DNA from: Bacillales bacterium
Lineage (GTDB): Bacteria > Bacillota > Bacilli > CAJFEE01
DNA length: 64,000 nucleotides
Assembly (NCBI GenBank): GCA_029256085.1
Contig: JAQSYP010000002.1
Location: 264,426 to 328,425 of the forward strand
Reading direction: 5' to 3'
Shown: positions 12,626 through 25,857 of the stretch, piece by piece
Layout: the number at the start of each line of letters is the position of its first letter
How positions within the stretch are numbered: the first letter of the stretch is position 1
Made by a program: the position numbers and the translations under genes
Notes under the pieces: generated by a model
The model's database searches: none
The model's input: only the letters and a program-made list of their open reading frames with translations
What the model was told of the DNA's origin: nothing

Positions 12626-12916
12626 GTGAACTCATTGGCTAAAGATGATAAGATGAAAATAGAAGCACTAACATTATCTGAAATATTAGATGTGGAAAGA
12701 ACTATATTAGCTAATGAACGAACTCTTCTTTCATTTATTAGAACATCACTTACGACTCTTGCTGCTGCCGTTTCGCTAATTCAATTTTTCGAGCATAAAG
12801 TTTATGATTTTGTTGGATATTCACTAGTTCCAATTGGACTTTTAGTTCTTCTTATTGGATTAATAAGACATTCTAATACTAAAAAATTAATTAGAAAAAT
12901 GGTTTCTAAAGGATGA
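12626..12916 (+). CDS. DUF202 (YidH-like) small membrane protein
   Basis: LANERTLLSFIRTSL motif followed by two TM helices. Confidence 0.55.
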   Translation: MNSLAKDDKMKIEALTLSEILDVERTILANERTLLSFIRTSLTTLAAAVSLIQFFEHKVYDFVGYSLVPIGLLVLLIGLIRHSNTKKLIRKMVSKG

Positions 12917-13455
12917 TTACAGTGAGAAAATATTTATTAAAAAATGGCAAGGAAGTATCTATTAGATTTTCTATACCCTCTGATGCTGAAAATATAATTT
13001 CATATATTAATAGAGTTGGTGGAGAAAGTAACTATCTTACTTTTGGAAAAAATCAATTCCCGCTAACTGTTGAAGATGAAATTAAACATATAGACTCGCA
13101 AGCTCAAAAGGAAAATTGTTGCTCAATCATTGCTGTAGTTGCTGGAGAAGTTATAAGCTGCGCTAATGTTTCGGCTTCCGATAAGGATAGAATTAAGCAT
13201 ATCGGTACAGTAGGTATTTCCGTACGAAAAGATTTCTGGGGCGTTGGTGTTGGAAAACTTGTAATGCACGAACTGATAGATTGGGCTAGGGAAGGTGGCA
13301 TTCTTAAAAAATTATGTTTGAAAGTTAGAGAAGATAACGTTGCTGCAATAGATTTATATGAAAAATTAGGCTTTGTAACGGTCGGCCTTCTTGTAAATGA
13401 TTTTTATATAGACCAAAAATATTATAATTGTATTTTAATGGAATTATTTTTATAA
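12913..13455 (+). CDS. GNAT family N-acetyltransferase
   Basis: VGVGKLVMHELIDWAREGGILKKLCLKVREDNVAAIDLYEKLGF is a GNAT motif A/B region. Confidence 0.75.
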   Translation: MITVRKYLLKNGKEVSIRFSIPSDAENIISYINRVGGESNYLTFGKNQFPLTVEDEIKHIDSQAQKENCCSIIAVVAGEVISCANVSASDKDRIKHIGTVGISVRKDFWGVGVGKLVMHELIDWAREGGILKKLCLKVREDNVAAIDLYEKLGFVTVGLLVNDFYIDQKYYNCILMELFL

Positions 13456-13462
13456 AATTTTT

Positions 13463-13580
13463 TCATATTCCATAATTTCTGCACAATTATATTTTATATT
13501 AAGTACATGAAAACCTTTCAAACCTTAAAACCCTAACCTTTTTTCTGTGGACTACCCGAAAACCACAGATTTTTTTTTGT
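13463..13580. repeat. interspersed ~105-bp repeat, copy A (bcr-type / MITE-like element of the B. cereus group)
   Basis: Shares ATATTTTCTGCACAATTATRTTTTATATTWAGTACATGAAAACCTTTCAWRCCTTAAAACCCTAACCTTTTTCTGTGGA…CCACAG with 16329–16436, 19337–19453 and 21441–21558. Ends in an inverted repeat (CTGTGGA…CCACAG). Confidence 0.7.
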
Positions 13581-13591
13581 GTTTTTTTAAC

Positions 13592-13710
13592 TTATAATCC
13601 AAAGATTGAGGTTTATAATCCGAACTAGCTATTATTTAATCCGATATATGTGTTTTTTAATCCGAAATTTATTTTTTTAATCCAAACTCAAAGTTTTATA
13701 ATCCAAACAA
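13592..13710. repeat. phased array of six T(T/A)TAATCC(A/G)A motifs at ~20–22-bp spacing
   Basis: ttataatccaaa / ttataatccgaa / tttaatccgat / ttaatccgaaa / ttaatccaaac / tataatccaaac, seen directly in the sequence between two convergent gene ends. Confidence 0.6.
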
Positions 13711-13758
13711 AAAAATAGACCAAGTTTCTTATAAGGAAACCTGATCTATTTTTATTTA

Positions 13759-14619
13759 TTAAATTTTCCAACTTACAATATACTCGGTATGAGGACTAGC
13801 TGGTAAATCTAACATTGGTTCTTCGAGTACCCAATCACCCTTTAAATTCAATTCATTACAAGCTAGCTCAAACTGCGCTATCGCTATTCCCATATCTAAC
13901 ATCTGCATGTCATATCCCATCCGATTATAATTGGGTGTATGCTCGATATAAAAATGATATAAGGTGCGATCTTCTGAAACGATAATTCTCCAAGGCTGTT
14001 TGTTTGAAGCTGATGGACCTATTCTGACCATTTCTAACGGCGCTTCTAAAAGTCCTGAATCTGATTTAGAAAGTGGCTTACCTAATTGTGCATCAAAAAA
14101 GATCTGGTCCCACGATTTTCGATTATCAGACTTTGCCAGAAAGCGAAGTGTCTTATCGATAAAACTTTTATTATCAAGAGGGTAGCCGATTGGAGTTATA
14201 CAAGGAATAAACTCTCCCTCATTTAATTCAATCTCCTTTTCAAAGGAACTTCTGCTAAACGTTCCCCCCATCCAACACGTCCCAATCCCTAGCTCGGTCA
14301 AAAGTATAATTAGTTTCTGCAGGGTATATCCCGATCCTACAATTGAATACTTATCATTTTTCGTAATACCGATTAAATATCCTCTAGGATTTTTGATAAT
14401 TCCATATGTTCCGAGCTTAAGACCTTTATCAGAAACATTTTTAGTAACTTTTACTAGCTCTATTTTATTAGTTTTGCCAAAAGGATCTGTAAGATTTTGT
14501 TCGTCACTTATGTAAGTTAATATTTTATCAAAATGTGCATCAGTTATATTTTTTTCATCAAAAGTTCTTACAGAATAACGTTTCTTCATTGATTCAATTA
14601 AAGATTTTTCAAAAATCAT
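13759..14619 (-). CDS. nitroreductase family protein
   Basis: Nitroreductase-type RYSVRTF motif near the N-terminus and a second nitroreductase-like half (WMGGTFS). Confidence 0.55.
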   Translation of the reverse strand: MIFEKSLIESMKKRYSVRTFDEKNITDAHFDKILTYISDEQNLTDPFGKTNKIELVKVTKNVSDKGLKLGTYGIIKNPRGYLIGITKNDKYSIVGSGYTLQKLIILLTELGIGTCWMGGTFSRSSFEKEIELNEGEFIPCITPIGYPLDNKSFIDKTLRFLAKSDNRKSWDQIFFDAQLGKPLSKSDSGLLEAPLEMVRIGPSASNKQPWRIIVSEDRTLYHFYIEHTPNYNRMGYDMQMLDMGIAIAQFELACNELNLKGDWVLEEPMLDLPASPHTEYIVSWKI

Positions 14620-14632
14620 TTAGCGTACCTCT

Positions 14633-15172
14633 CTATAATTCAATTTTTACCGCATCGACAATTAAAGAAGGAAAGACTAATTTTTCACCTTTGTTTCTTG
14701 GATCATACTTTTTAGAACGAAAAATAATACCATCATTGCCATCCCAATCATTTATGCAAAAATCACCGTTTTCATTACAATACTCTAATAAGTTAACCTT
14801 AAATCCAGCACATTCAAACATTTTTGTTAAAGTTTTATAATTATGTACAATTTTATGAGTAGCAGCTGGGCCGGGGCCATCAACTTTTACAAGGTTTTGG
14901 TATACATCATCTTGAAAGTAGGCATCCGGAACGGCACAACGTACATACCCATTCTTAGCTAAAAATTTATAACAGATTTTCGCTGCTATCATTCCCTCAT
15001 CAAACGTTAAATGCTCCCATACATGTTCCGCAAGTATTGCTGATAAAGATTGTTCTTCAAATTTATCTTGCCAAGTTTTTTCATCTAGTAGGTTAAGCGT
15101 ATCCTCATTTGTATGCAACCAACCTGGGTTATTATTATATTCACCCGAACCAACTACTATCTTTAATACCAT
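14633..15172 (-). CDS. hypothetical protein (possible methyltransferase-like fold)
   Basis: 179 aa with IVVGSGEY and AEHVWEHL motifs; only a weak resemblance to SAM-MTase-like proteins. Confidence 0.3.
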   Translation of the reverse strand: MVLKIVVGSGEYNNNPGWLHTNEDTLNLLDEKTWQDKFEEQSLSAILAEHVWEHLTFDEGMIAAKICYKFLAKNGYVRCAVPDAYFQDDVYQNLVKVDGPGPAATHKIVHNYKTLTKMFECAGFKVNLLEYCNENGDFCINDWDGNDGIIFRSKKYDPRNKGEKLVFPSLIVDAVKIEL

Positions 15173-15184
15173 TAATATCCCCTC

Positions 15185-15481
15185 TTAAGGCTTATACTTT
15201 TGTGGATTACTAAAAAAATCACTATAGTTGTATCTTCCTACTACATCGAAAGTTTTTAAATCCTTTTTAAACTCAATTACAAACACTTCTCCGTGAAGTC
15301 CAGAATCATAATTATTATCTACTATTGCAAGCCTATTTTCTCCAAGAGGCACTACAGTGGTAGAAATTGAGTTGTATGTAGGTTGTTCAACATTGTTAAA
15401 ACTTGGTACTGGTTTTAAAGCGATAAAAATTAAACAAATTAAGATTCCAATTAAAATGTACTTTGTAGAATTATTATTCAT
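15185..15481 (-). CDS. hypothetical membrane-anchored protein
   Basis: Start at the internal Met (MNNNSTKYILIGILICLIFIALKP) followed by a signal anchor. The listed ORF extends further upstream without support. Confidence 0.35.
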   Translation of the reverse strand: MNNNSTKYILIGILICLIFIALKPVPSFNNVEQPTYNSISTTVVPLGENRLAIVDNNYDSGLHGEVFVIEFKKDLKTFDVVGRYNYSDFFSNPQKYKP

Positions 15482-15561
15482 GTGTTCTCCATTTCTCTTA
15501 ATAAAGGGTTTTGACAAAATTTGTAGAATACCTATTCTATTAGAAAAAAAGTGAGGTAAAT

Positions 15562-15876
15562 ATGGTAATAGATACAAGCATTATACAAATAGCGCTTATT
15601 ATAATTGTACTATATTTTTTATACAGTTGGAGTCAGCTAGAAACAAAGCGTTATAAAATTTTCTTATATTTCATCGTTAGTACTATAATAGTTCCACTTT
15701 TCGTGACAGAAACTCGAGAGAATAGACTAGAGTTGTGGTTCCCACTAGGTTTTACATATTTGTTTGTTTATTTAATGTTAAAAGAAGATAAACAACCTAA
15801 TAAAGTAAAAGCTTGTATTCTAGGATTAGTAGTTGGAGTTTATATGCTAATTTCAAAATATTGGGGAGTTTACTAA
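15562..15876 (+). CDS. hypothetical membrane protein
   Basis: 104 aa with three hydrophobic helices. RBS GTGAGG upstream. Confidence 0.4.
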   Translation: MVIDTSIIQIALIIIVLYFLYSWSQLETKRYKIFLYFIVSTIIVPLFVTETRENRLELWFPLGFTYLFVYLMLKEDKQPNKVKACILGLVVGVYMLISKYWGVY

Positions 15877-16319
15877 TGAAAATAATTAAATGGACTACGG
15901 TGTCTATAGTTCTAATATCTATATTATTTATGGCAGTAAAAGCACTTGAATATAATAATCTATTAAAACTAACTTATAACCAAAGAGATATGGAAGATTT
16001 GACTAAGGTTGAATATCAACTTAAAATTCCATCCAGCGAACCAGCAAGTTATACAGATGAACAAGTTTTGAATGATAAAGAGAATTTTACTAAGCTACAA
16101 GATATTTTGCAAAACATACGTTGGGAAAACAACTGGAAGTGTTGTGTCGACGGAGATGTAAGAGCAAACTTAACTTTTAAAAATAAAGAAAAGATACTTT
16201 ACCATATTAATTTTGAATCAGACGGAGCAACGATTGCTTCTTTCGAAAATAAGAAAAAAACGAAGTTCTATAAAATGGATGAAAAAAGTTCCGATCAATT
16301 GAAAAAAATTTTCAATTAG
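15876..16319 (+). CDS. hypothetical membrane-anchored protein
   Basis: ATG overlaps the upstream TAA (TAATG coupling). N-terminal TM (MKIIKWTTVSIVLISILFMAV). Confidence 0.4.
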   Translation: MKIIKWTTVSIVLISILFMAVKALEYNNLLKLTYNQRDMEDLTKVEYQLKIPSSEPASYTDEQVLNDKENFTKLQDILQNIRWENNWKCCVDGDVRANLTFKNKEKILYHINFESDGATIASFENKKKTKFYKMDEKSSDQLKKIFN

Positions 16320-16328
16320 AATCTTTTT

Positions 16329-16436
16329 TGCATATTTTCTGCACAATTATGTTTTATATTAAGTACATGAAAACCTTTCATACCTTAAAACCCTAACCTT
16401 TTTCTGTGGATTCTCGAAACCCACAGATTTTTTTGT
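16329..16436. repeat. interspersed ~105-bp repeat, copy B
   Basis: Over 90% identical to copies A, C and D. Confidence 0.7.
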
Positions 16437-16440
16437 TCTC

Positions 16441-16545
16441 ATTCAAATTAAGGAAATCTTCTTTATCCTCTTGTGCAAAAACAATTACCTTTTATCCACC
16501 TTTTGGCATTGGAGCTCCATTGACAATAATTTCTACCAGACGAAA
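16441..16545 (-). pseudogene. relic fragment paralogous to the 219-aa gene at 21567–22226
   Basis: Minus-strand translation LVEIIVNGAPMPKGG*KVIVFAQEDKEDFLNLN aligns with LVAVTFNGIPLSKVGEKVILFAGEDKEDFYNLN of the intact gene, with an in-frame stop. The first 20 nt (GAAATCTTCTTTATCCTCT) are identical at DNA level. Truncated where repeat copy B begins. Confidence 0.55.
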
Positions 16546-16886
16546 TATTTTCATGTATTTTCATCTTTCCACTATTATTTTCAATAATTCCTATTTTGGT
16601 TATACACCTAGGTTCTACTAATCCAATCACATTTTCATTCAACCAAAAAAATAGAGTTTAAGTAATACACATTAGTAACGAGTCAAAATTAAGTGATATC
16701 CACAAACTTTTAAATTTATGTTTTTAATGAATTGCGAGTCCTGAGTAATTCCCTCTAAATGAACATCCCATTACTATTATCAAATCCAATAGTTTCATAG
16801 TAAAGTGAAATAATATTAAAAGAATTATTCTAGAGTGTAACTTTTAGATGATTTATCTGTCTATATAGGCAGAGAGGAGAACGCGC

Positions 16887-17386
16887 ATGTCAGACCCTAG
16901 GATTGAACTATATGAGACTTACAAAGATACTGTTTATTTGTATCTTTATCGGTCATCTCTAAATAAGCAAATAGCCGAAGATTTAACACATGATACTTTT
17001 TTAAGTGCCTTCCAATCTCTAGGTAAATTTAGAGGAGAGTCGTCACTGAAAACATGGTTAATCAAAATTGCAAGAAATAATTATATTAGCTTTTCCCAGA
17101 AGAAACAAAATAAGTTGAAATACATACCAAAGACATATATGAATACGAAACCAATCAACGTGATCATTATAAATGCCTCGATGAGAAGCTGTTAATACAA
17201 TTAGTTCTTGTTAAAATGCAAGAAAATTATCGAACATATATTATTTTGCGTGATGTTAACGGTTTAACTTATGAAGAAATATCTGTAGTAACTAATGAAA
17301 CGATTCATCAAGTTAAAGTTGGCCTTTACCGTGCTAGGAAAAAATTTCGAGAATTATATAAGGAAGTGAATGAAGAATGGAATTAG
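16887..17386 (+). pseudogene. ECF (sigma-70 family) RNA polymerase sigma factor, disrupted by a frameshift
   Basis: Region 2 (…DLTHDTFLSAFQSLGKFRGESSLKTWLIKIARNNYIS) is in frame 0 and stops at 17195. Region 4 (LDEKLLIQLVLVKMQENYRTYIILRDVNGLTYEEISVVTNETIHQVKVGLYRARKKF) continues in another frame to the TAG at 17384–17386. The shift maps to the A-tract near 17105–17115, consistent with a 1-nt deletion. Confidence 0.7.
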
Positions 17387-18828
17387 AACACGATGTAGTT
17401 AAAGACTTATACCCATTATATATTGAAAATGATTTGAGTCCATCCGTTAAAATGGCAGTCGATGAACATTTAAAAAAATGTGACCACTGTTCAAAAAATT
17501 ATAATAGCAGCGTAGGATTTTCTGAGAATTTAAAAGAGTTGGAAAAACCCGTAATTGCAAATAAGGTTGATGAAAAAATAATACTTAAAGTAAAGATAAA
17601 TCAATTAAAATACTTAACTATGTTTTTAGCTAGTATTATACTTACAATTTTAATTTTAGATTACAAAAATGACCGAGAAAAACTATTAACTAAATTTCAA
17701 GATTACTTTATCGCAGCCGACTTTTTACCAGATTCATTTGCTCCTATTAAAGACAACACACACAGCAACCTAGAATATTTAAAAGAAGACATTTTCCGTA
17801 TATTTGAGAAAAAAATAATTTTAGAAGAAAACTTAAATTACTTTGAAAAACGCGAACTGAATAATACAGAGTACCGTTTAACATTACATGATGATAGTTT
17901 TAATAAAATGCTCGAAATTATGGAAATGCGCTATGACCAGGGTTTATGGGATAAAACAGACGAGGCAGTATATCAAAAAACACAAAAATACTTCCTAGAT
18001 TTTAGCAAATTACTTGGTAAGCAAGAAAATAAGTTAAATCATGGTTATAGTTCCTATTTTGAAACACTAGATATTGTAGAAATGGATAAATTTTACAAAA
18101 AGATCAATTTATTAAGTGATAGTTATACTAGATTTCATAAACTTCCAGAACAATTACATCCTATCGGCAAATCAAAATTAAAGAAAATAATAGCAAGAAA
18201 ACTTAACGTAAGTGTCAGCGATGTAAAGATATTAAAAAATAGATTGAGTGAAATTCCCTTTAACTATGAATTTGTAATACAAGATAAATACAACGGTTGG
18301 ATAGACGGATATAATGGACAAATTACTACCGTAAATGGAAATCATGGTCTATCTGACGGTCAAGTAATGACAACTGATAATGCAAAGAAAAAAGCGCACG
18401 AACACCTCCAAAATATATATGGTGATAAAATTAGTTTCAACTTAGTTTCGTTAGGTTTTAACTATAATTATGAATTTTCCAACTCAGATTTTAAGGTACA
18501 TAGCTTTAGAGTAGTTCCAGTACTTAAAGGATACAAGTTCTATACACGATACAATGAAGGTACGATTATTCACATAGATTCAGATACTGGTAAGCTTAGA
18601 ATGTTAAGTCTTGATAATAGAATAGGAGATCTTAACGAATTCCCTAAAACTGACTTAACTATTAAAATATCTAAAGAAAAACTACAAAATAAAAATCTAA
18701 CCGACACAGTTATCATATACTCCGAACTAACAGGTAAATTCGAATTAGTATATATGAACCCTAGGCTGGAGGATTTTGAAAAAGAGAAATTTTATTCAAC
18801 AAAAGGAAATTTCAAACTTTCTTATTAG
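17377..18828 (+). CDS. anti-sigma factor with N-terminal zf-HC2 zinc finger, one TM segment and a large extracytoplasmic domain
   Basis: ATG overlaps the sigma stop (ATGGAATTAG). HLKKCDHC matches the H-x3-C-x2-C motif. TM segment YLTMFLASIILTILILDY. 483 aa. Confidence 0.7.
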   Translation: MELEHDVVKDLYPLYIENDLSPSVKMAVDEHLKKCDHCSKNYNSSVGFSENLKELEKPVIANKVDEKIILKVKINQLKYLTMFLASIILTILILDYKNDREKLLTKFQDYFIAADFLPDSFAPIKDNTHSNLEYLKEDIFRIFEKKIILEENLNYFEKRELNNTEYRLTLHDDSFNKMLEIMEMRYDQGLWDKTDEAVYQKTQKYFLDFSKLLGKQENKLNHGYSSYFETLDIVEMDKFYKKINLLSDSYTRFHKLPEQLHPIGKSKLKKIIARKLNVSVSDVKILKNRLSEIPFNYEFVIQDKYNGWIDGYNGQITTVNGNHGLSDGQVMTTDNAKKKAHEHLQNIYGDKISFNLVSLGFNYNYEFSNSDFKVHSFRVVPVLKGYKFYTRYNEGTIIHIDSDTGKLRMLSLDNRIGDLNEFPKTDLTIKISKEKLQNKNLTDTVIIYSELTGKFELVYMNPRLEDFEKEKFYSTKGNFKLSY

Positions 18829-18832
18829 CAAA

Positions 18833-18862
18833 AAAAGGACTCCTCAGAGTCCTTTTTAAGTT
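18833..18862 (+). terminator. rho-independent terminator
   Basis: AAAAAGGACTCCTCAGAGTCCTTTTT hairpin followed by a T-run. Confidence 0.65.
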
Positions 18863-18958
18863 TGTTGTTTGTTATCGTATTCTTTAAAACCTATTTGTAA
18901 TTTATTTAGCAACTCAGCTTGAGCTTTTTTATTATAAATTATTTGTGTTTCACTATAT

Positions 18959-19144
18959 TTATTTATCTATAACTCTGTAAGCATTCGTTGAATTTAAGTG
19001 GTTATCAAAAATCCACTGCTTTATTTCATCTTTTTCTCTTAATCTATCCATCTTTTTCTTATATTCTACTGGATCGTCAGGTTTACTCTTTCTTGTGTTT
19101 CCAGAAAATATAGCCTCTAAGATATCTTTGAAAAAATCCTCCAT
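18959..19144 (-). CDS. small hypothetical protein (61 aa)
   Basis: Short charged ORF; no recognisable motif. Confidence 0.3.
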   Translation of the reverse strand: MEDFFKDILEAIFSGNTRKSKPDDPVEYKKKMDRLREKDEIKQWIFDNHLNSTNAYRVIDK

Positions 19145-19336
19145 AAAATCACTCTCCCTATTATCCGTAACCTACAATTTTTCACTCTATCAATTGAAAC
19201 GTAAACGGTAACCAATAATTTCTATCTTAAATATCATCCAATGATTCTTTAAGAATAACTTGAGAAAGTAAAACCTTTCGTCTTTATCTATTATTCTTTC
19301 AAATTTTACCTCAATTTAAAAATTTTGATAAGGGAT

Positions 19337-19453
19337 TTTCCATATTTTCTGCACAATTATGTTTTATATTTAGTACATGAAAACCTTTCATACCTTAAAA
19401 CCCTAACCTTTTTCTGTGGATTCTCGAAACCCACAGTATTTTTTTTGCCTAAA
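19337..19453. repeat. interspersed ~105-bp repeat, copy C
   Basis: As copies A, B and D. Shares the extended 3' tail TATTTTTTTTGCCTAAA with copy D. Confidence 0.7.
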
Positions 19454-19490
19454 TTTGAAATAGTGCAAATAAATTTTGTCCGCACTACTT

Positions 19491-20186
19491 TTAAAACATT
19501 CCTGGTTTCTTGTTTAGAGGCTCATTAAAAAGATCAACATTTAAATTACCTGTTGAGTCTAGTTCGGCTAAAAATATGTCTTCTGCTTTTTGCGCGCCTT
19601 GCTTTACTATCTCCTGCTGCAACCACTTAGTATCTAACTTTGCAAATTTCAAATTATTATATTGTATTTCCCCATCAATAATTAGTGGTAGTGTTAGTCC
19701 CTCATATTGGGTATCTATATTCAAATCACTAGGAGTTACAGGTCTATTTTGTGATGTTGGAATTACAGATAGATTACCATCCGGTTCTATTATAGCGAAC
19801 TCTACATCTGAAACTTTTGCATATCCTTGTAATCTCAATAACGATAATAAGAAAGGCAAATTCATTCTATTTCGTCTCATTGCTTGTCTGTCAATTTTGC
19901 CGTTCACAATTATAATTTCAGGTTTAACATCAAAATTATAAAACCATTTATTTAATGATAATCTACCTATAATAACAGCCATAACGGCAATCGTGACTGT
20001 ACCTATGAAAGCTTTAGTTGTTACCTTGTATACTAGCGGTTCAGCCGCAACGTTAGCTAGAACCATAAGCGCCGTGAAATCATAGGATGTTAGCTGAGAA
20101 ATAGACTTCCTTCCAATTAGCCTAACACTAAACCATGAGAAAATTAATACAACTATACATCGAGATACATAAACTAAGAAATCCAT
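19491..20186 (-). CDS. DUF421 (YetF-like) membrane protein
   Basis: SISQLTSYDFTALMVLANVAAEPLV together with the C-terminal YetF-type soluble domain. Confidence 0.7.
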   Translation of the reverse strand: MDFLVYVSRCIVVLIFSWFSVRLIGRKSISQLTSYDFTALMVLANVAAEPLVYKVTTKAFIGTVTIAVMAVIIGRLSLNKWFYNFDVKPEIIIVNGKIDRQAMRRNRMNLPFLLSLLRLQGYAKVSDVEFAIIEPDGNLSVIPTSQNRPVTPSDLNIDTQYEGLTLPLIIDGEIQYNNLKFAKLDTKWLQQEIVKQGAQKAEDIFLAELDSTGNLNVDLFNEPLNKKPGMF

Positions 20187-20198
20187 TTTTCACCCTTC

Positions 20199-20618
20199 TT
20201 ATGGCTCTGGAACTATTCTTAAAAAATTGTTCCAAAGTTTTAATGCAGACATTGCCTGTCCAACCGTCTCTGTATCATCTTTGGTCTTTATAGCACCATT
20301 CATACGGGAAAGATTATCTACAAAAAGTAAATAGTCTGCCTCAGCATAATTCAAAGCAATTAAGTACTTATTTTTCTCCCACGAAGACATTAGCTTTCTT
20401 GACGAAACCTCCGCATCACTCCATCGTTCTTCCTGTGCATAATTAATTATGTTGTTAAGTTCACTTTCAATTGGTTTAGTTGAAGTAAGAACTGCATATC
20501 TTGCAATGAAGTATGCTATAAATAGTAAAACTACAATACCAAGCAATGAGTTAGTAACAGTTCTATTTCTCACGCCTAGTCCCCCTTTTTTCTTAACGCT
20601 ATAACCGATTATTGACAA
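20199..20618 (-). CDS. DUF4363-like membrane-anchored protein (partner of DUF421)
   Basis: 139 aa with an N-terminal TM. Gene order with DUF421 is conserved in Bacilli. Confidence 0.45.
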   Translation of the reverse strand: MSIIGYSVKKKGGLGVRNRTVTNSLLGIVVLLFIAYFIARYAVLTSTKPIESELNNIINYAQEERWSDAEVSSRKLMSSWEKNKYLIALNYAEADYLLFVDNLSRMNGAIKTKDDTETVGQAMSALKLWNNFLRIVPEP

Positions 20619-20704
20619 AAGAATGACTGCATAAACATTATCTTTTTTGCTTTTAGATTAAATAAAAGACACACTTTATAATAATAAGTGTGTCTTTTAG
20701 TCTA

Positions 20705-21412
20705 CTATTTTTTTCCTAATGAAAATCCTTCAAACAGTCTACCACCATATGGTTGTAGAACCTCATCTACTAAATTAATTACTGCACATTTTTTATTATT
20801 TTTATAGAATTCATCAAAAGCATATACAAACTGTTCTGCAAACTCTAAATCATACTGCTTTAATGAACGCAAAGCCCATTTTGATGTACCAGTCCACTTA
20901 CGGTTTGTTCGCAAAACAAATTCGATTACTAAATCAGCTAAAGCATTTGCAACAAAAATCCCTTCTGGTCTATTACCGCATCCGATAAAATCTTCTAATA
21001 CATCTGTTATAAAATATCTTTTAAAATTTATAGTTTCGCTAGTCCAGGCTTCTGGACCCTTATCAAGAAGTTTTTGCGCTTCATTTTTTATAATGTCGAG
21101 TATATTTTCATCCTTTAAAACAAATCCCTCTGAAACCATTCTAGGCAACGAAGGTCTTGCCCTTTTACAGTCATTTTCAAAGTAATCTTTATAAGAAATA
21201 AAGTTATGTACAAATATTTCAATCGGCCATCCGAAAGCTATTAGTGATTCGCGATAGGCTGTGGAGATATCGTTACAGAAAACAACAATATCTAGATCAG
21301 ATGTTTCAGTAAATTCTCCCCTAATAACACTCCCTGCCAATACTGCTCCTTGGCAATCTGGAAAATATTCACTAATAAAGTTTCTTGCAGCTTCAATAGG
21401 CTCTTGTCTCAT
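20705..21412 (-). CDS. nucleotidyltransferase domain protein (Pol-beta superfamily; possible antibiotic nucleotidyltransferase)
   Basis: AVLAGSVIRGEFTETSDLDIVVF is the GS…D.D NTase motif; plus a C-terminal helical domain. Confidence 0.6.
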   Translation of the reverse strand: MRQEPIEAARNFISEYFPDCQGAVLAGSVIRGEFTETSDLDIVVFCNDISTAYRESLIAFGWPIEIFVHNFISYKDYFENDCKRARPSLPRMVSEGFVLKDENILDIIKNEAQKLLDKGPEAWTSETINFKRYFITDVLEDFIGCGNRPEGIFVANALADLVIEFVLRTNRKWTGTSKWALRSLKQYDLEFAEQFVYAFDEFYKNNKKCAVINLVDEVLQPYGGRLFEGFSLGKK

Positions 21413-21440
21413 TTTTTGACCTCATAAAATTTTTATATGT

Positions 21441-21558
21441 TTTCCATATTTTCTGCACATTTATGTTTTATATTAAGTACATGAAAACCTTTCATGCCTT
21501 AAAACCCTAACCTTTTTCTGTGGATTCTCGAAACCACAGTATTTTTTTTGCCTAAAAT
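21441..21558. repeat. interspersed ~105-bp repeat, copy D
   Basis: As copies A–C. Confidence 0.7.
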
Positions 21559-21566
21559 CCACTTTT

Positions 21567-22226
21567 TTAATTATTTTCTATTTTGTTAATTAATTCAGCT
21601 AGTGACATTTTTAAATTATCATTTTCAGTGAATTCTATGTGTCTAAATACCTTATTGCTTTGTTCATCGATAATAAATTTACCTTGATTTGAACCTATAG
21701 GGTAATAAACTTTTTCATTCAAATTATAGAAATCTTCTTTATCCTCTCCGGCAAAAAGAATTACTTTTTCGCCAACCTTTGAAAGTGGAATCCCGTTAAA
21801 AGTTACAGCTACTAAATCAGATGACAATTTTACAGGTATGTTAAACTTATCACTGACATACTTTTGAATATTCCCTTTCGTGGTTATACCTCCAGCTTCA
21901 ACTACACTAATAACATCACCCTTTTTTATATTACTAGTAAAATTTTTTGTAACTCTTATTTTTAATTTAGAGAATGTATTTGTTTTAAAATCAAAGTATT
22001 CAATATCGAGTATTTTACCTTCGAAAATTGTATCAGAATTTAACTTTAATTCTGATACGGTATTATATGTTTTTACGGAATCCGCAAAAGCCGAAACAGT
22101 TTTTATATCGCTTAATTTTACTTTGTTGCTAATGTTTAGTATTTTAACTCTATCTTTCTGATAATATGTAAATATACCTATCACAATGATTGATAGAGAT
22201 ATAAAGCTGATTATATATTTTTTCAT
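21567..22226 (-). CDS. hypothetical signal-anchored extracytoplasmic protein (219 aa)
   Basis: N-terminal TM (MKKYIISFISLSIIVIGIFTYY). Intact paralog of the relic at 16441–16545. Confidence 0.5.
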   Translation of the reverse strand: MKKYIISFISLSIIVIGIFTYYQKDRVKILNISNKVKLSDIKTVSAFADSVKTYNTVSELKLNSDTIFEGKILDIEYFDFKTNTFSKLKIRVTKNFTSNIKKGDVISVVEAGGITTKGNIQKYVSDKFNIPVKLSSDLVAVTFNGIPLSKVGEKVILFAGEDKEDFYNLNEKVYYPIGSNQGKFIIDEQSNKVFRHIEFTENDNLKMSLAELINKIENN

Positions 22227-22345
22227 TAATTTTCACCCCATATTTTTATAACTATAATTTTATCATAGGTTGGATAATTATCTATTTAAAAGAACTTAGA
22301 AATTACAAAGGAAAGGAGCTGATCCAAATGGGTAGCTCCTTCATT

Positions 22346-23113
22346 TTATAAAACTATATTAAAATATTCTTTTAATGCGTTGTTATATTCTTCGTCTGTT
22401 TTTGGTACAAAAGTTTTAATACCTTCACTTGTCGATACCCTAAAATCTGAACCTAATATAGTATTTATTCCATAATTCGTTCTAATTGCAACTCTAACAG
22501 TATTTTTAAAAATAGAGTCATCAGAATTTTCGCACCAATAAGACGGCATGATGAAATCTTTTGGCAACTGTGGTTCTTCAGTAAACGAATATAATTTATG
22601 CCACTGATCCTCTTCCTTCTCAAAAAGTATCCAACCAAAATAATAATCTTTTACTAACTTGTAAGAGGTGTGACCATCATTTTGTACTAATCCTTCTATC
22701 ATCTCTATCGGTTTAAGTGGAGAATTCACACCGACTCCTACATCGCATATATAAAATTTACCGTTAATTTTTACTTTTAAAACATGGTGTTGACGCATTG
22801 GAGGCAAATTTTCCTCATATCTCCAAAAACGCGCTATATAATCAGTTACCCTAAATCCAAGTTCTCGAAGTAAAGAACCGAATAGCGCATTCAGTTCAAA
22901 ACAAAAACCCCCGCGATTATTACACACAATTTTTTGATATAGCTGTTCAACGTCAAGTGAAATAGGTTTACGGTTTATAATATCAAAATTTTCAAATGGG
23001 ACCCTCTTAAGATGACATTCTTGCAATTTTGAGAGTGTATTCAAGTTAACTTCTATTGTACCTTCATAACCAATTCTCTCTAAATATTTAGTAACCTCAC
23101 TGCTCATAATCAA
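22346..23113 (-). CDS. arylamine N-acetyltransferase (NAT)
   Basis: RVPFENFDI and NRGGFCFELN motifs (catalytic Cys in RGGxCxELN). Confidence 0.85.
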   Translation of the reverse strand: MIMSSEVTKYLERIGYEGTIEVNLNTLSKLQECHLKRVPFENFDIINRKPISLDVEQLYQKIVCNNRGGFCFELNALFGSLLRELGFRVTDYIARFWRYEENLPPMRQHHVLKVKINGKFYICDVGVGVNSPLKPIEMIEGLVQNDGHTSYKLVKDYYFGWILFEKEEDQWHKLYSFTEEPQLPKDFIMPSYWCENSDDSIFKNTVRVAIRTNYGINTILGSDFRVSTSEGIKTFVPKTDEEYNNALKEYFNIVL

Positions 23114-23251
23114 GTCCCCTATAATACAGTTTATACTACTAGTCTATTATATTTAAATATCTAGTAATCATGTTATTTATGGCTATTTAAAGGAGTTAGA
23201 TTAGTATGTACTGAATTAATAATATATAAGAGAAAACTGGGGGGAATTCAA

Positions 23252-24196
23252 GTGGAAGATGTCAAAGTAGCCGTAGTTCAAGCCGCGTCAGTTGTTATGG
23301 ATAAAGATAAAAGTACAGAAAAAGCTGTAAAACTAACACTAGAAGCAGGAAATAACGGAGCAAACATTGTTGTTTTTCCAGAAGCATTTATTCCTGCTTA
23401 TCCAAGAGGTCTTAGTTTCGGAGCAGTAGTTGGGAGCCGCTCTCTTGAAGGTAGAAAAGATTTTTACCGATATTGGGAAAATTCGATAGCTGTTCCGAGT
23501 GAAGAAACTGATAGATTAGGTGAAGCAGCTCGTAAAGCTGGAGTTTATTTAGATATTGGTGTAATTGAGAGAGATAATGAATATAGCAAAGGAACTTTAT
23601 ACTGTACTATGTTATATTTTGGACCTGACGGCACATTGCTAGGTAAACACCGTAAATTAAAGCCAACAGGCTCGGAAAGATTAATTTGGGGCGAAGGTGA
23701 TGGAAGTACTCTGCCAGTATTTGATACGCCTTTCGGAAAAATCGGCGGACTCATTTGCTGGGAAAATTACATGCCCCTCGCAAGAGCAGCAATGTACTCG
23801 AAAGGTGTACAAATATACATTGCTCCAACTGCTGACTCGAGAGACTTGTGGCAATCTACTATTCGTCATATAGCGGCTGAAGGTAGATGCTTCGTGCTTT
23901 CATGCAATCAATATGTAACTAAAGAAATGTACCCTTCTGACTTAGCTTGCTTTGAAGATTTAGTAAACTCACCTGATGAGATGTGCCCTGGTGGGAGTGC
24001 AATTGTTGGCCCGTTAGGTGAATATATAGTCAGTCCAGTTTGGGGGAAAGAAGATATCTTATATGCTTCCTTGAACTTACAAGATATCGCATATAGTCAG
24101 TTCGATTTCGATGTTGTTGGCCACTATTCAAGACCTGATGTATTTCAGCTAGTTGTTAATGATGAGAAAAAAGAAAATGTAGTATGGAGAAGCTAA
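23252..24196 (+). CDS. nitrilase / carbon-nitrogen hydrolase family protein
   Basis: VKVAVVQAASVVMDKDKS…IVVFPEAFIPAYP (catalytic Glu), KHRKLKPT (Lys) and GGLICWEN (Cys) form the catalytic triad. GTG start. Confidence 0.85.
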   Translation: MEDVKVAVVQAASVVMDKDKSTEKAVKLTLEAGNNGANIVVFPEAFIPAYPRGLSFGAVVGSRSLEGRKDFYRYWENSIAVPSEETDRLGEAARKAGVYLDIGVIERDNEYSKGTLYCTMLYFGPDGTLLGKHRKLKPTGSERLIWGEGDGSTLPVFDTPFGKIGGLICWENYMPLARAAMYSKGVQIYIAPTADSRDLWQSTIRHIAAEGRCFVLSCNQYVTKEMYPSDLACFEDLVNSPDEMCPGGSAIVGPLGEYIVSPVWGKEDILYASLNLQDIAYSQFDFDVVGHYSRPDVFQLVVNDEKKENVVWRS

Positions 24197-24198
24197 AA

Positions 24199-24228
24199 GT
24201 TGGTTCCATGAACCAACTTTTTTATTTG
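24199..24228 (+). terminator. rho-independent terminator
   Basis: GTTGGTTC-CAT-GAACCAAC hairpin followed by TTTTTT. Confidence 0.6.
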
Positions 24229-24302
24229 AAAAATCTCCTTCAATTATTTCGGATTTCCATTATAATTAGTTAGTATGTCTAATTTGAAAGAGTGGATTTA
24301 TT

Positions 24303-25241
24303 ATGAAAAATAAAATTGTGTTTGGTATTTTGTGTGCCATAGTTTGCGAGATTATATTTGGTTTTAGTTTTCTTTTTACAAAAAAAATTACAAATACTGT
24401 TTCAACTTTAAATTTATTAAGTTGGAGATTTATAATAGCATTTCTATTTTTAAATATATGTGCACTACTTCGAATAATTAAGTTGAATTTCAAAGGAAAA
24501 CAACTAAAGTCTTTATTTTTAGTAGCTTTGTTTCAACCAGTAATTTATTTTATCGGAGAAACTGTTGGTATTAACCTTACTACTGCTTCTGAAAGTGGTG
24601 TAATAATTTCAAGCATTCCGATAGTTACCCTGTTATTTTCAGCATTAATATTGAAGGAATCTCCAACTAGATTACAAATTTTAGGCGTTAGTACTACTGC
24701 TGTTGGTATTTTGATCATGGTACTAGTTAAAGGGATTGAAGCTTCATTTAACCCAATTGGCTATATTATGTTATTTCTCGCAGTAATTTCATATAGTTTA
24801 TATTCCGTTTACTCAGAAAAAGCTACAGAATTCAGTAGTATTGAAAAAACATACGCAATGATGGCATTTGGTGCTATCACATTCACATTTATGGCACTGA
24901 TTCAAAATATTAATTCAGGAACACTTAAGGAATATTTACTATTACCAGTAGAAAACCCTGATTTTTTAAATGCGATTGGTTATCTAAGTATTGTCAGCTC
25001 AGTTGTTGCATTTTTATTATATAATTTAGCAATAGAATATCTTGGAACTAATCGTACAGCCTCATTTGTAGGTGTTTCAACAATTGTAACTGTAGTTGCT
25101 GGTGTTATTTTTTTGAAAGAAGATTTTTCTTCGTATCAAATTATTGGAACGATTCTTGTAATTGTTGGAGTTTATTTAGCTAATATTATTAAAGATGACG
25201 ATTTAAAATCACAAAACTATGAAGTTAAAAAGGTAAGCTAG
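24303..25241 (+). CDS. DMT superfamily (EamA-like) transporter
   Basis: About 10 TM segments with the two-repeat EamA architecture. Confidence 0.65.
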   Translation: MKNKIVFGILCAIVCEIIFGFSFLFTKKITNTVSTLNLLSWRFIIAFLFLNICALLRIIKLNFKGKQLKSLFLVALFQPVIYFIGETVGINLTTASESGVIISSIPIVTLLFSALILKESPTRLQILGVSTTAVGILIMVLVKGIEASFNPIGYIMLFLAVISYSLYSVYSEKATEFSSIEKTYAMMAFGAITFTFMALIQNINSGTLKEYLLLPVENPDFLNAIGYLSIVSSVVAFLLYNLAIEYLGTNRTASFVGVSTIVTVVAGVIFLKEDFSSYQIIGTILVIVGVYLANIIKDDDLKSQNYEVKKVS

Positions 25242-25247
25242 AAAGTT

Positions 25248-25775
25248 CTAGCTTACCTTTTTTTCAACTTTTTCAATAATTATTGTGAAAAATAGCAAAA
25301 CAATTAACGGTATTAATAGTAAATTTTCTCTTAAAAATAAATTATATGCAGCCTCATATCCAGATTGCGGAGTTGGGTACCCAACCTCTTTTTGAAAGTT
25401 AAAAATCAATTCTACAATTATCGCAATAAAAATAACAAGTTTAATCTTCAGTCCACTCTTAACTAATTTAATCATATACGCTTCTAGCTTATTAGACTTT
25501 ATATATAAAACTATTTGATAAACTATTAAAACTAAACTAACAAATATCACCAATCCATGTGGAGTAAGCGGTTTAAAATAATTGCCCCAAATTTCATTAC
25601 TACTACTAAAATCATTAATATACTTATATGATGCTAGAAATGATATACAATTACCAATAGCAATAGGCATATATGTTTTAAGAACCTTACTGAGAATTAC
25701 TAAAAACAATGAACATACAAACATTATTAAGTATCCTATCAATGACCTCTCTTTGAAATCATTTAACATAGCCAA
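25248..25775 (-). CDS. hypothetical integral membrane protein
   Basis: 175 aa with 4–5 TM segments. Confidence 0.4.
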   Translation of the reverse strand: MAMLNDFKERSLIGYLIMFVCSLFLVILSKVLKTYMPIAIGNCISFLASYKYINDFSSSNEIWGNYFKPLTPHGLVIFVSLVLIVYQIVLYIKSNKLEAYMIKLVKSGLKIKLVIFIAIIVELIFNFQKEVGYPTPQSGYEAAYNLFLRENLLLIPLIVLLFFTIIIEKVEKKVS

Positions 25776-25857
25776 ATAAACATATGGAATACTACTAAGA
25801 AAAAGTAATAGTAATTGATAGTATTTAATATTTATTTCCCCCTGATCTTAGAGCATT

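What the first reader, a model, noticed from the sequence alone, without database searches (positions are those of the whole stretch)
13463..21558. Four copies of a ~105-bp interspersed palindromic-end repeat (probable bcr-type MITE) within 8 kb
Copies at 13463–13580, 16329–16436, 19337–19453 and 21441–21558 are more than 90% identical. The core is ATATTTTCTGCACAATTATGTTTTATATTAAGTACATGAAAACCTTTCATACCTTAAAACCCTAACCTTTTTCTGTGGATTCTCGAAACCCACAG followed by a T-run. Every copy lies in a short intergenic region at the 3' end of a gene. The inverted terminal CTGTGGA…CCACAG could form a long RNA hairpin, so the element may act as a terminator or be transcribed as a small RNA.

This density, four copies in a 64-kb window, is high and marks the 13–22-kb stretch as a plastic accessory region.
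Basis: partly seen in the sequence, partly recalled or inferred. Interest (0 to 1): 0.5.

Follow-up and report, generated by a model that had tools for sequence, protein, structure and literature searches.

The report
Lineage-specific terminator-like intergenic repeat, not bcr
Four near-identical ~110-bp non-coding repeats really do sit between genes in an 8-kb stretch, but they belong to an uncultured Bacillales bacterium, lack every hallmark of a bcr element or MITE, and look most like a small, locally duplicated, selectively maintained "transcription stop" module of modest general interest.

Summary
There are four + strand copies of a 105-109-bp core at 13470-13578, 16330-16434, 19340-19446 and 21444-21549. 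They are 89-96% identical, and no further copy occurs in the 64-kb window or in 11 kb beyond it.

The host is an uncultured Bacillales MAG with 31.7% GC, not a B. cereus-group genome. I found no terminal inverted repeats, no abutting target duplications and no transposase or integrase. There is no Rfam, plasmid or phage match, and no true hit in 185,579 species-representative genomes or the JGI metagenome collection.

A ~93%-identical relative carries only the orthologues of copies 1 and 4. Copies 2 and 3 lie in a 4.4-kb segment that the relative lacks.

Orthologous cores are better conserved (97%, 94%) than their flanking genes (93%, 85%). Sequences duplicated together with the cores are only ~70% identical. 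This points to constraint on the core and to spread by local segmental duplication.

Each core has a short palindrome, a C-rich tract with three ACCTT motifs, and a 6-bp GC hairpin followed by T7-9.

My best reading is a SPRITE-like, one-way terminator or 3'-end module that may be expressed as a small RNA. Function is inferred, not shown. Interest is low to moderate.

The parts
13470..13578 (+). Copy 1 core (109 bp). Homology to the other copies runs about 13452-13582. Sub-features: palindrome 13507-13521, C-rich tract 13523-13544, hairpin 13545-13568, T9 13570-13578. It lies 15 nt after the stop of the + strand GNAT gene (12913-13455), convergent with the nitroreductase gene (13759-14619, - strand).
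   Evidence: An orthologous copy in L003 is 97.2% identical and shares copy-specific variants.
16330..16434 (+). Copy 2 core (105 bp). Sub-features: palindrome 16367-16381, C-rich tract 16383-16403, hairpin 16404-16426, T7 16428-16434. It starts about 10 nt after the stop of the + strand YhfM-like gene (15813-16319). Its right end abuts a decayed p219 paralogue.
   Evidence: It lies at the left edge of the 4.37-kb segment absent from L003.
19340..19446 (+). Copy 3 core (107 bp). Homology runs about 19304-19453. Sub-features: palindrome 19377-19391, C-rich tract 19393-19413, hairpin 19414-19436, T8 19439-19446. It lies 38-45 nt from the stop of the - strand DUF421 gene (19491-20186). Its left flank is a ~70-80% copy of the nucleotidyltransferase 5' leader, including the complement of the ribosome-binding site.
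21444..21549 (+). Copy 4 core (106 bp). Homology runs about 21414-21556. Sub-features: palindrome 21481-21495, C-rich tract 21497-21517, hairpin 21518-21539, T8 21542-21549. It fills almost all of the 154-bp gap between the stop of p219 (21567) and the start of the nucleotidyltransferase gene (21412), both on the - strand.
   Evidence: An orthologous copy in L003 and L004 is 94-95% identical.
16436..16703 (-). Rearranged pseudogene fragment of a p219 paralogue. It is truncated exactly at the right end of copy 2. p219 residues ~104-171 are encoded on the - strand, and an N-terminal piece is inverted.
   Evidence: tblastn and blastn; repeats D2, D4 and I1. DNA identity to p219 is 70% over 205 bp.
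21567..22226 (-). p219, a 219-aa orphan membrane-anchored protein. Its gene and promoter region (about 21551-22348) are absent from L003, and the indel starts at the right end of copy 4.
16313..20685 (.). A 4.37-kb segment present in the window but absent from the ~93%-identical relative. It carries copy 2, the p219 pseudogene, a split ECF sigma gene with its anti-sigma gene, a 61-aa ORF, copy 3, and a Clostridia-like DUF421-DUF4363 pair.

Best explanation
What it is. This is a lineage-restricted small intergenic repeat of an uncultured Bacillales bacterium. The module is ~105-110 bp, AT-rich (~30% GC) and non-coding. Read on the + strand it has four parts:
1. an AT-rich left part;
2. a 6-7-bp palindrome, (C)ATGAAA-acc-TTTCAT(G);
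3. an unpaired C-rich tract, ACCTTAAAACCCTAACCTTTTT;
4. a 6-bp GC hairpin, CTGTGG...CCACAG, followed by seven to nine T.
The last part is the anatomy of a Rho-independent terminator that works in one direction only.

How I think it works (inferred). It acts in cis at the transcript level as a one-way stop and 3'-end module. It ends + strand transcripts of the GNAT gene (copy 1) and the YhfM-like gene (copy 2). At all four sites it keeps + strand read-through out of the - strand gene whose 3' end lies to its right. The ~80 nt upstream of the hairpin is as conserved as the hairpin stem, so it probably has an added role. That role could be the body of a short C-rich RNA or 3'UTR, or a protein-binding site.

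How it multiplied. It did not spread by cut-and-paste transposition. Local segmental duplication and recombination carried pieces of neighbouring DNA along with it, taking the locus from two copies (as in the relative) to four.

Shown: the copies, their anatomy, their restriction to this lineage, the absence of MITE and bcr features, the extra conservation of the core, and the co-duplicated flanks.
Inferred: termination, any RNA role, and the direction of the copy-number change.
For: Existence and anatomy.

Terminator-like end. The 6-bp stem (4 G-C pairs) is invariant in all six copies from two genomes. A T5 run lies before it and T7-9 after it. The reverse strand has A-runs instead, so the signal is unidirectional.

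Position. The right neighbour is always the 3' end of a - strand gene. At copies 1 and 2 the left neighbour is the stop codon of a + strand gene, 10-15 nt away.

Constraint.
- Orthologous cores are 97.2% and 94.4% identical. Flanking genes are 92.8% and 85.2% identical, and other intergenic DNA is 91.5% and 85.3% (binomial P 0.04 and 0.002).
- Orthologues keep copy-specific variants, so this is not concerted evolution.

Local duplication rather than transposition.
- The left ends are ragged.
- The left flank of copy 3 copies the nucleotidyltransferase leader up to the start codon.
- Copies 2 and 4 are both followed by p219 or its pseudogene, at 70% identity versus 94-95% for the cores.
- All four copies lie within 8 kb and in one orientation, and none occurs in the other 67 kb examined.
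- There are no TIRs and no abutting duplications.
- No transposase or integrase was seen among the ORFs and gene calls checked across the ~75 kb (Pfam hits on record for JGI gene calls, plus my own scan of 20 ORFs of at least 200 aa).

Lineage restriction.
Against: - The + strand hairpin is weak for a terminator (-6.2 to -6.7 kcal/mol, 10-12-nt loop). The consensus terminator scan did not list it.
- Copies 3 and 4 have no + strand gene just upstream, so a pure 'gene terminator' role fits only two of the four copies.
- Termination alone does not explain why the 80 nt upstream is conserved.
- The constraint statistics rest on two orthologous pairs and nine differences.
- Only 75 kb of the source genome and 21 kb of the relative could be read. 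A genome-wide dispersed (mobile) distribution is therefore not excluded.
- The element's junction with p219 differs by 162 bp between copies 2 and 4. A simple co-duplication needs an extra deletion ending exactly at the element's edge.
- No expression data exist.
Confidence: 0.45

Rival explanations
1. A family of stand-alone small RNA genes on the + strand. Each copy would be transcribed from its own promoter in the AT-rich left part. The product would be a ~70-80-nt RNA with a 5' hairpin (CAUGAAAaccUUUCAUG), an unpaired C-rich seed with three ACCUU anti-Shine-Dalgarno-like motifs, and a terminator. It would act on mRNAs by pairing at ribosome-binding sites, like the multi-copy LhrC or csRNA families of other Firmicutes (that comparison is from my own knowledge).
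For: - The architecture of hairpin, unstructured C-rich tract and terminator is conserved in all six copies.
- The whole core, not only the terminator, is more conserved than its flanks.
- Copies 3 and 4 have no upstream + strand gene, so a terminator there makes most sense for a self-contained transcript.
- Local clustering in one orientation is typical of sRNA paralogues.
Against: - No positionally conserved sigma-A-type promoter exists on the + strand. Copies 3 and 4 and the copy-4 orthologue in L003 have none even at relaxed thresholds. I recognised no alternative-sigma consensus by eye.
- No Rfam family matches; the best hits have E 0.06-7 and are noise.
- No compensatory changes are seen (0 of 17 pairs).
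- Fold z-scores are only -1 to -2.9.
- At copies 1 and 2 the element starts within 15 nt of a stop codon, which leaves no room for an independent upstream promoter outside the element.
Confidence: 0.2
2. A non-autonomous mobile element mobilised in trans by a transposase encoded elsewhere in the genome. It would be either a MITE in the loose sense used for SPRITE, or an IS200/IS605-type hairpin-ended derivative, which needs neither TIRs nor duplications and inserts in one orientation.
For: - The right end is discrete and identical in all copies (T-run followed by G).
- Two of the six indel breakpoints between the two genomes fall at element edges: the left edge of copy 2 and the right edge of copy 4.
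- Cores are 94-96% identical while adjacent paralogous DNA is only 70% identical.
- A gene (the p219 pseudogene) is truncated exactly at the element's edge.
- All copies share one orientation.
- Copy number differs between close relatives (4 versus 2).
Against: - There are no TIRs (10 of 30 matches), and no consistent or abutting target duplication.
- The left boundary is ragged, and flanking homology extends beyond the core.
- No empty site for a single element was found. The extra copies sit inside a larger 4.37-kb indel.
- No transposase was seen among the ORFs and gene calls checked in the ~75 kb examined.
- Only four copies were found, all within 8 kb.
- The two copies shared with the relative are orthologous and stable.
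Confidence: 0.17
3. A portable promoter and operator cassette read on the - strand. TTTTCA-16-(C/T)ATAAT would drive the gene to the left: the nucleotidyltransferase gene at copy 4 and the 61-aa ORF at copy 3. The ATGAAA-N3-TTTCAT palindrome overlaps the -35 box and would be the operator.
For: - The promoter-like site is at the same position in 5 of 6 copies, and is a perfect TATAAT in the copy-1 type.
- Copy 4 and its orthologue occupy almost all of the DNA upstream of the nucleotidyltransferase gene, about 40-70 nt from its start.
- The - strand is the probable leading strand (GC skew -0.06 on the + strand).
Against: - Such hexamer matches are no more frequent here than in shuffled sequence (49 found versus 44.5 expected in 9 kb).
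- The -10 box is broken (CATAAA) in the window's own copy 4, the copy where it should matter most.
- At copies 1 and 2 it would fire antisense into the 3' ends of convergent genes.
- More distant homologues of the nucleotidyltransferase gene lack the element upstream.
Confidence: 0.1
4. Recombination sites (integron attC-like or Xer/dif-like) that delimit exchangeable gene cassettes.
For: - The four copies are directly oriented, 2.1-3.0 kb apart, with different gene sets between them.
- Indel breakpoints fall at element edges.
Against: - No integrase or recombinase was seen among the ORFs and gene calls checked in the ~75 kb.
- The element does not fold as one long imperfect palindrome like attC.
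- The 4.37-kb indel is bounded by a copy on one side only.
- The intervening segments hold several genes in both orientations.
- The resemblance to dif arms that I noted by eye is weak, and such matches are expected in AT-rich DNA.
Confidence: 0.04

Closest known systems
[quoted passage not shown] 2011, PMC3049150)
   Same: - About 105 bp and AT-rich.
- Carries a hairpin followed by a T-rich tract.
- Sits close to the 3' ends of genes and between convergent genes.
- Has no convincing TIRs, no established target duplication and no matching IS end.
- Is restricted to one species and its closest relative.
- Orthologous copies are stable between genomes.
   Different: - SPRITE has an 18-bp duplex, whereas this element has a 6-bp stem.
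- SPRITE has ~30 dispersed copies per genome in both orientations. Here four copies lie in 8 kb in one orientation, though the rest of the genome was not seen.
- No sequence relationship was detected, and the host order differs.
- This element has a conserved ~80-nt non-palindromic body with a C-rich tract.
bcr1-bcr18 repeats of the Bacillus cereus group (bcr1 ~155 bp; PMC6542083, PMC3184786)
   Same: Both are small intergenic repeats of a Bacillales genome. Both lie in the 100-400-bp size range, are possibly transcribed, and vary in copy number between relatives.
   Different: - bcr elements are defined in, and specific to, the B. cereus group. This host is a different, uncultured Bacillales lineage.
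- bcr1 is flanked by 5-bp direct repeats with a TTTAT motif and folds into a two-stem cruciform with compensatory changes. None of that is seen here.
- No sequence match was found to B. cereus-group representative genomes or to plasmids.
Canonical bacterial MITEs (e.g. Correia/nemis of Neisseria, RUP of pneumococcus)
   Same: Short, non-coding, intergenic, multi-copy and AT-rich. Such elements can carry terminator or promoter signals that affect neighbouring genes.
   Different: MITEs have terminal inverted repeats, target-site duplications and a long end-to-end stem-loop. This element has none of these. Its only hairpin is local and lies at one end.
Multi-copy regulatory sRNAs of Firmicutes (LhrC1-5 of Listeria, csRNAs of Streptococcus; from my own knowledge, not tested here)
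   Same: Several near-identical ~100-nt units, partly clustered. Each ends in a terminator and carries unpaired C/U-rich motifs that could pair with Shine-Dalgarno sequences.
   Different: Those families have defined promoters dependent on a response regulator, and their transcripts have been demonstrated. Here I could find no conserved + strand promoter, and no expression data exist.

Membership tests
bcr repeats (B. cereus group) | Occurs in B. cereus-group genomes, to which bcr elements are specific | tested here: not met
   - The host is an uncultured 'Bacillales bacterium' MAG with 31.7% GC.
- The 35-base core pattern has 0 hits in 185,579 species-representative genomes.
- The 18-mer core gives only 27 single chance hits in unrelated taxa.
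bcr repeats (B. cereus group) | Sequence similarity to a bcr1-bcr18 consensus | tested here: inconclusive
Indirect test: blastn with word size 11 against 72,556 plasmids gave no match. That collection should include B. cereus-group plasmids, which are reported to carry bcr1, 4, 6, 10, 13, 16 and 18 (PMC6542083). The chromosomal-only bcr types were tested only by the exact-word scans.
bcr repeats (B. cereus group) | Flanked by 5-bp direct repeats / TTTAT motif at the insertion site (bcr1 group) | tested here: not met
   The longest shared strings between the 20-nt flanks differ from copy to copy, do not abut the element, and lie partly inside the homologous left flank.
MITE | Terminal inverted repeats | tested here: not met
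   The first 30 nt against the reverse complement of the last 30 nt gives 10 of 30 matches at the best offset. The CTGTGG/CCACAG repeat is a local 3' hairpin.
MITE | Target-site duplication and precise ends shown by an empty site | tested here: not met
   - No consistent duplication was found.
- The left ends are ragged.
- The sister genome lacks copies 2 and 3 only as part of a 4.37-kb indel, so there is no clean empty site.
MITE | A related autonomous IS or transposase with matching ends in the same genome | not testable with these tools
   No transposase was seen among the ORFs and gene calls checked in the ~75 kb read. The rest of the 476-kb contig and the rest of the genome could not be fetched.
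SPRITE-like terminator repeats | ~100-bp AT-rich repeat ending in a hairpin plus T-rich tract | tested here: met
   Cores are 105-109 bp with 28-31% GC. A 6-bp GC stem followed by T7-9 is present in all copies. The stem is much shorter than SPRITE's 18 bp (PMC3049150).
SPRITE-like terminator repeats | Enriched next to 3' ends of genes and between convergent genes | tested here: met
   All four copies adjoin a gene 3' end. Copies 1 and 2 lie between convergent genes. With n = 4 there are no usable statistics.
SPRITE-like terminator repeats | Sequence homology to pneumococcal SPRITE | not tested
   I did not have a SPRITE sequence. No streptococcal genome was hit by the exact-word scans. Membership is not claimed; the comparison is by behaviour only.
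Intrinsic (Rho-independent) terminator | GC-rich stem-loop immediately followed by a U-run on the transcribed strand | tested here: met
   On the + strand: a 6-bp stem with 4 G-C pairs at -6.2 to -6.7 kcal/mol, then 7-9 T within 0-2 nt. This is weak by usual standards. The loop of 10-12 nt exceeds the limit of the consensus scan, which did not list it. Activity was not tested.
Known RNA families (Rfam 15) | Score at or above a family's gathering threshold | tested here: not met
   There were 0 matches in the whole window at gathering thresholds. Around copy 3 only noise appeared at E up to 10.

The most novel reading that the evidence does not exclude
The core is a functional, selectively maintained unit that does two things. 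It would encode a new multi-copy C-rich small RNA family of an uncultured Bacillales lineage. Its copies would also serve as homology anchors at which gene cassettes are gained, lost or duplicated. Candidate cassettes are the orphan p219 gene and the 4.4-kb segment with Clostridia-like DUF421/DUF4363 genes. This would explain why two of the six indel breakpoints between sister genomes coincide with element edges.
Probability: 0.15. Interest if true: 0.45.

Novelty: new member of a known kind. Interest (0 to 1): 0.25.

Why it matters
If the reading is right, this is one more example that low-GC Gram-positive genomes evolve their own private, terminator-bearing intergenic repeats, as the pneumococcus did with SPRITE. 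It would also show that such repeats can multiply by local duplication alongside gene-cassette gain, without transposing.

The practical lesson is about annotation. A repeat with a hairpin at one end should not be filed as a MITE or a bcr element without checking the host, TIRs and target duplications.

The conserved C-rich body plus terminator is a reasonable candidate sRNA or 3'UTR element. It could be tested directly in metatranscriptomes from the same samples.

The broader significance is modest. The element is so far known from two closely related uncultured genomes, and no function has been shown.

Tried and rejected
1. Rfam search at gathering thresholds on the whole window, and at E up to 10 around copy 3: nothing meaningful.
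2. Exact and relaxed pattern scans of public collections.
   - Genome contigs gave only chance seed hits, which I checked with nhmmer.
   - Metagenome contigs likewise gave only chance hits (checked).
   - Viral contigs gave nothing.
   - The JGI samples that hold this organism are evidently not in the scannable metagenome collection.
3. blastn with word size 11 against plasmids and phages: no match.
4. Small ORFs inside the element. A 9-aa + strand ORF and a 20-29-aa - strand ORF (MKGFHVLNIKHNCAENM...) were rejected. Their C-termini vary, most substitutions change the amino acid, ATG becomes TTG in the copy-1 type, the Shine-Dalgarno spacing is poor, and the peptide is not hydrophobic, so it is not toxin-like.
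5. A + strand sigma-A promoter: none is conserved in position. By eye I also found no sigma-54, sigma-B, -E, -F, -G, -H, -K or ECF consensus.
6. An ancestral regulatory region of the nucleotidyltransferase gene: rejected, because homologues at 68-70% identity in other genera lack the element.
7. Arrival together with the Clostridia-like DUF421/DUF4363 cassette: rejected. The Acetivibrio locus is collinear but has no element, and copies 1 and 4 exist in the relative without that cassette.
8. Integron-like or Xer-like sites: no recombinase was found and the fold is not attC-like.
9. Extending the search for copies. Only about 11 kb beyond the window could be fetched, and it held no copy. One look-up failed because the called start codon differs.
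10. The source study and the bcr1 paper were not in the library.

Full report
**1. The observation**

Four copies of one sequence are present, all on the + strand.
- The repeat finder reports a four-member family spaced 2860, 3010 and 2104 bp apart.
- A 44-nt core allowing up to 3 mismatches hits exactly four times, against 0 expected in 100 shuffles.
- An HMM built from the copies finds the same four at E 1e-34 to 1e-38. The next best hit in the 64-kb window has E 0.19.

The well-aligned cores are 13470-13578, 16330-16434, 19340-19446 and 21444-21549, each 105-109 bp with ~30% GC. Core identity is 94-96% among copies 2, 3 and 4, and 89-90% between copy 1 and the rest.

Two descriptive points need correcting.
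- "More than 90%" does not hold for copy 1.
- CTGTGG...CCACAG is not a pair of terminal inverted repeats. It is a single local hairpin at the 3' end with a 6-bp stem and a 10-12-nt loop, at -6.2 to -6.7 kcal/mol as + strand RNA.

**2. Whose genome this is**

- The window is the reverse complement of about 139,015-203,014 of a 475,827-bp JGI metagenome contig, 3300042934 Ga0456364_0000041.
- One of its proteins is deposited at NCBI as "MAG... [Bacillales bacterium]".
- GC content is 31.7% throughout.
- The nucleotidyltransferase next to copy 4 is 82% identical to that of a second Bacillales MAG. It is 65-70% identical to proteins of many Bacillaceae genera (Virgibacillus, Rummeliibacillus, Ornithinibacillus, Lysinibacillus, Neobacillus and others). 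No B. cereus-group protein appears among the best 120 hits.

The premise of a B. cereus-group genome is therefore wrong.

**3. Distribution**

- The 35-base invariant core pattern has no match in one genome for each of 185,579 species.
- A 25-base pattern has no match in the JGI metagenome collection or in IMG/VR.
- Relaxing to the invariant 18-mer gives 27 single hits in unrelated taxa. nhmmer shows these are the seed alone.
- A gapped pattern gives two marine coding-sequence hits, also chance.
- blastn against plasmids and phages finds nothing. Rfam has no matching family.
- About 11 kb beyond the window ends holds no further copy.
- A Logan contig from SRR35185192 is 100% identical to window 19407-21488. 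It breaks inside copies 3 and 4, as expected for a repeat.

Outside this genome, the element occurs only in a sister genome. That genome is represented by locus L003 from JGI 3300042923 and L004 from NCBI GCA_029239855.1, and is 92-96% identical over most of the aligned region.

**4. Comparison with the sister genome**

L003 is collinear with window 6666-36000 but has only two copies. They are the orthologues of copy 1 (between the GNAT and nitroreductase genes) and of copy 4 (upstream of the nucleotidyltransferase gene). Each shares copy-specific variants with its window partner.

Three window segments are missing from L003.
- 16313-20685 is missing. It starts within about 10 nt of the left edge of copy 2.
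- 21551-22348, the p219 gene, is missing. It starts at the right edge of copy 4.
- 23090-26563 is missing.

The 4.37-kb segment holds copy 2, a rearranged p219 pseudogene, a split ECF sigma gene with its anti-sigma gene, a 61-aa ORF, copy 3 and a DUF421-DUF4363 pair. The closest relatives of that pair are clostridial: 77-78% amino-acid identity to Acetivibrio and Pseudobacteroides, collinear at 71% DNA identity. No element lies next to the pair in those genomes.

**5. Is it a MITE or a bcr element?**

- Terminal inverted repeats are absent: 10 of 30 matches between the two ends.
- There is no consistent duplication abutting the element. The short strings shared by the flanks differ between copies and lie partly in a region that is itself homologous among copies.
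- The left boundary is ragged. Copies 3 and 4 and the copy-4 orthologue in L003 share a further ~35 nt that is the 5' leader of the nucleotidyltransferase gene, up to its start codon. Copy 1 shares ~15 nt of it and copy 2 none.
- No transposase or integrase appears among the ORFs and gene calls checked across the ~75 kb (Pfam hits on record for JGI gene calls, plus my own scan of 20 ORFs of at least 200 aa).
- bcr elements are specific to the B. cereus group, and bcr1 is flanked by 5-bp repeats with a TTTAT motif (PMC6542083, PMC3184786). Neither condition is met here.
- I could not obtain the bcr consensus sequences. That alignment remains undone, but the indirect tests are all negative.

**6. 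Anatomy**

Read on the + strand, each core has these parts (coordinates):
1. An AT-rich left part, ...CCATATTTTCTGCACAATTATGTTTTATATTAAGTAC.
2. A palindrome, (C)ATGAAA-acc-TTTCAT(G).
3. A C-rich tract, CCTTAAAACCCTAACCTTTTT. Counting the palindrome, the core holds three ACCTT motifs.
4. The hairpin CTGTGG-N10-12-CCACAG.
5. Zero to two bases, then seven to nine T.

On the - strand the hairpin is followed by A5, so any terminator is one-way. In copies 2 and 3 the - strand RNA hairpin is stronger (10 bp with G-U pairs, -11 kcal/mol), but this does not hold for the other copies.

A sigma-A-like TTTTCA-16-(C/T)ATAAT lies on the - strand in five of the six copies. It is broken (CATAAA) in the window's copy 4. 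Such matches are no more frequent in this AT-rich DNA than in shuffled sequence. No + strand promoter is conserved in position.

Small ORFs on either strand are unconvincing.

**7. Evidence for constraint**

- The copy-1 pair is 97.2% identical (3 differences in 109). Neighbouring genes are 92.8% identical and other intergenic DNA 91.5%.
- The copy-4 pair is 94.4% identical (6 differences in 108). The adjacent gene is 85.2% identical and its leader 85.3%.
- The binomial P values are 0.04 and 0.002.
- Paralogous cores are 94-96% identical, while DNA duplicated along with them is much more diverged. p219 and its pseudogene are 70% identical over 205 bp, and the leader copy beside copy 3 is ~71% identical.
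- Orthologues resemble each other more than paralogues do, so within-genome homogenisation is not the explanation.

The whole core, not just the stem, therefore seems to be under purifying selection. The sample is small: two orthologous pairs.

**8. Best explanation and rivals**

*Best reading (confidence ~0.45).* This is a private, SPRITE-like intergenic repeat, a ~110-bp module whose clearest signal is a one-way intrinsic terminator.
- It lies beside the 3' end of a - strand gene at all four sites.
- At copies 1 and 2 it lies 10-15 nt after the stop of a + strand gene.
- It would end + strand transcripts and shield the convergent genes.
- It multiplied locally by segmental duplication or recombination rather than by transposition.

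*Weak points of that reading.*
- The stem is weak.
- Copies 3 and 4 have no + strand gene upstream.
- The conserved 80-nt body is left unexplained.

*Rivals.*
- Stand-alone C-rich sRNA family (~0.2). This is the main rival because of those weak points. It is held back by the lack of any recognisable promoter, covariation or Rfam relative.
- Trans-mobilised element without TIRs (~0.17). This is kept alive by the discrete right end, by indel breakpoints at element edges, and by the gene truncated at the edge of copy 2.
- A - strand promoter cassette (~0.1).
- Recombination sites (~0.04).

**9. Comparison with known elements**

By behaviour, the closest known element is SPRITE of S. pneumoniae. 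SPRITE is ~105 bp, AT-rich and terminator-like, is enriched at gene 3' ends and between convergent genes, has no clear TIRs or duplication, and is confined to one species and its nearest relative (PMC3049150).

The differences are the much shorter stem here, the few clustered and co-oriented copies, and the conserved C-rich body. No homology is claimed.

The element fails the defining tests for MITEs and for bcr elements.

**10. Verdict**

The element is real, non-random and probably functional. It is a new, lineage-specific member of a known kind, the small terminator-like intergenic repeats. It is not a bcr element and not a canonical MITE.

Interest is low to moderate. Its main value is as a testable sRNA or terminator candidate and as a marker of a rearranging locus in an uncultured Bacillales genome.

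Noticed in passing
window 13593-13706 (+): Six copies of TWTAATCCRA are phased about every 21 bp (13593, 13614, 13635, 13656, 13676, 13697). They lie between copy 1 and the 18-bp-stem terminator of the nitroreductase gene (13711-13753). The window has 9 matches against 1.6 expected. This looks like a phased protein-binding array, similar to iterons. In the NCBI MAG contig L004, a deletion runs from inside the copy-1 orthologue's hairpin into this array.
   Followed up: partly
window 21567-22226 (-) and 16436-16703: p219 is a 219-aa protein with an N-terminal membrane anchor. It is an orphan: the only match in 5.8 billion protein clusters is itself. A decayed, partly inverted paralogue fragment lies beside copy 2. 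The gene is absent from the ~93%-identical sister genome.
   Followed up: partly
window 19491-20618 (-): The closest relatives of the DUF421-DUF4363 gene pair are in Clostridia, with 77-78% amino-acid identity to Acetivibrio cellulolyticus and Pseudobacteroides. The pair is collinear with the A. cellulolyticus locus at 71% DNA identity. It is missing from the sister Bacillales genome. This suggests horizontal acquisition.
   Followed up: partly
window 16887-17386 (+), next to 17377-18828: The ECF sigma factor is called as two separate ORFs: 102 aa with region 2 and 56 aa with region 4. They lie upstream of a 483-aa zf-HC2 anti-sigma gene. This is either a frameshifted pseudogene or an assembly error.
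   Followed up: no
window 20663-20699: A 37-bp near-perfect palindrome (AAAAGACACACTT...AAGTGTGTCTTTT) lies between the nucleotidyltransferase and DUF4363 genes. The sister genome has a related but different hairpin at the same place, which there lies between convergent genes.
   Followed up: no
window 22349-23089 (-) versus L003 9064-9803: The arylamine N-acetyltransferase-like gene (Pfam Acetyltransf_2) is only 66% identical in DNA between the two genomes, which are otherwise ~93% identical. The product is 253-255 aa here and 203 aa in the relative. This suggests allele replacement or different paralogues at this position.
   Followed up: no
window 48729-49595 (-), and L035 15970-20176 (just left of the window): A streptomycin adenylyltransferase-family gene (PF04439, E 3e-115) lies in the window. 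An arsenic-resistance cluster (ArsR-like HTH, ArsB, LMWPc, ArsD, ArsA) lies just outside its left end. Both look like ordinary accessory resistance genes.
   Followed up: no
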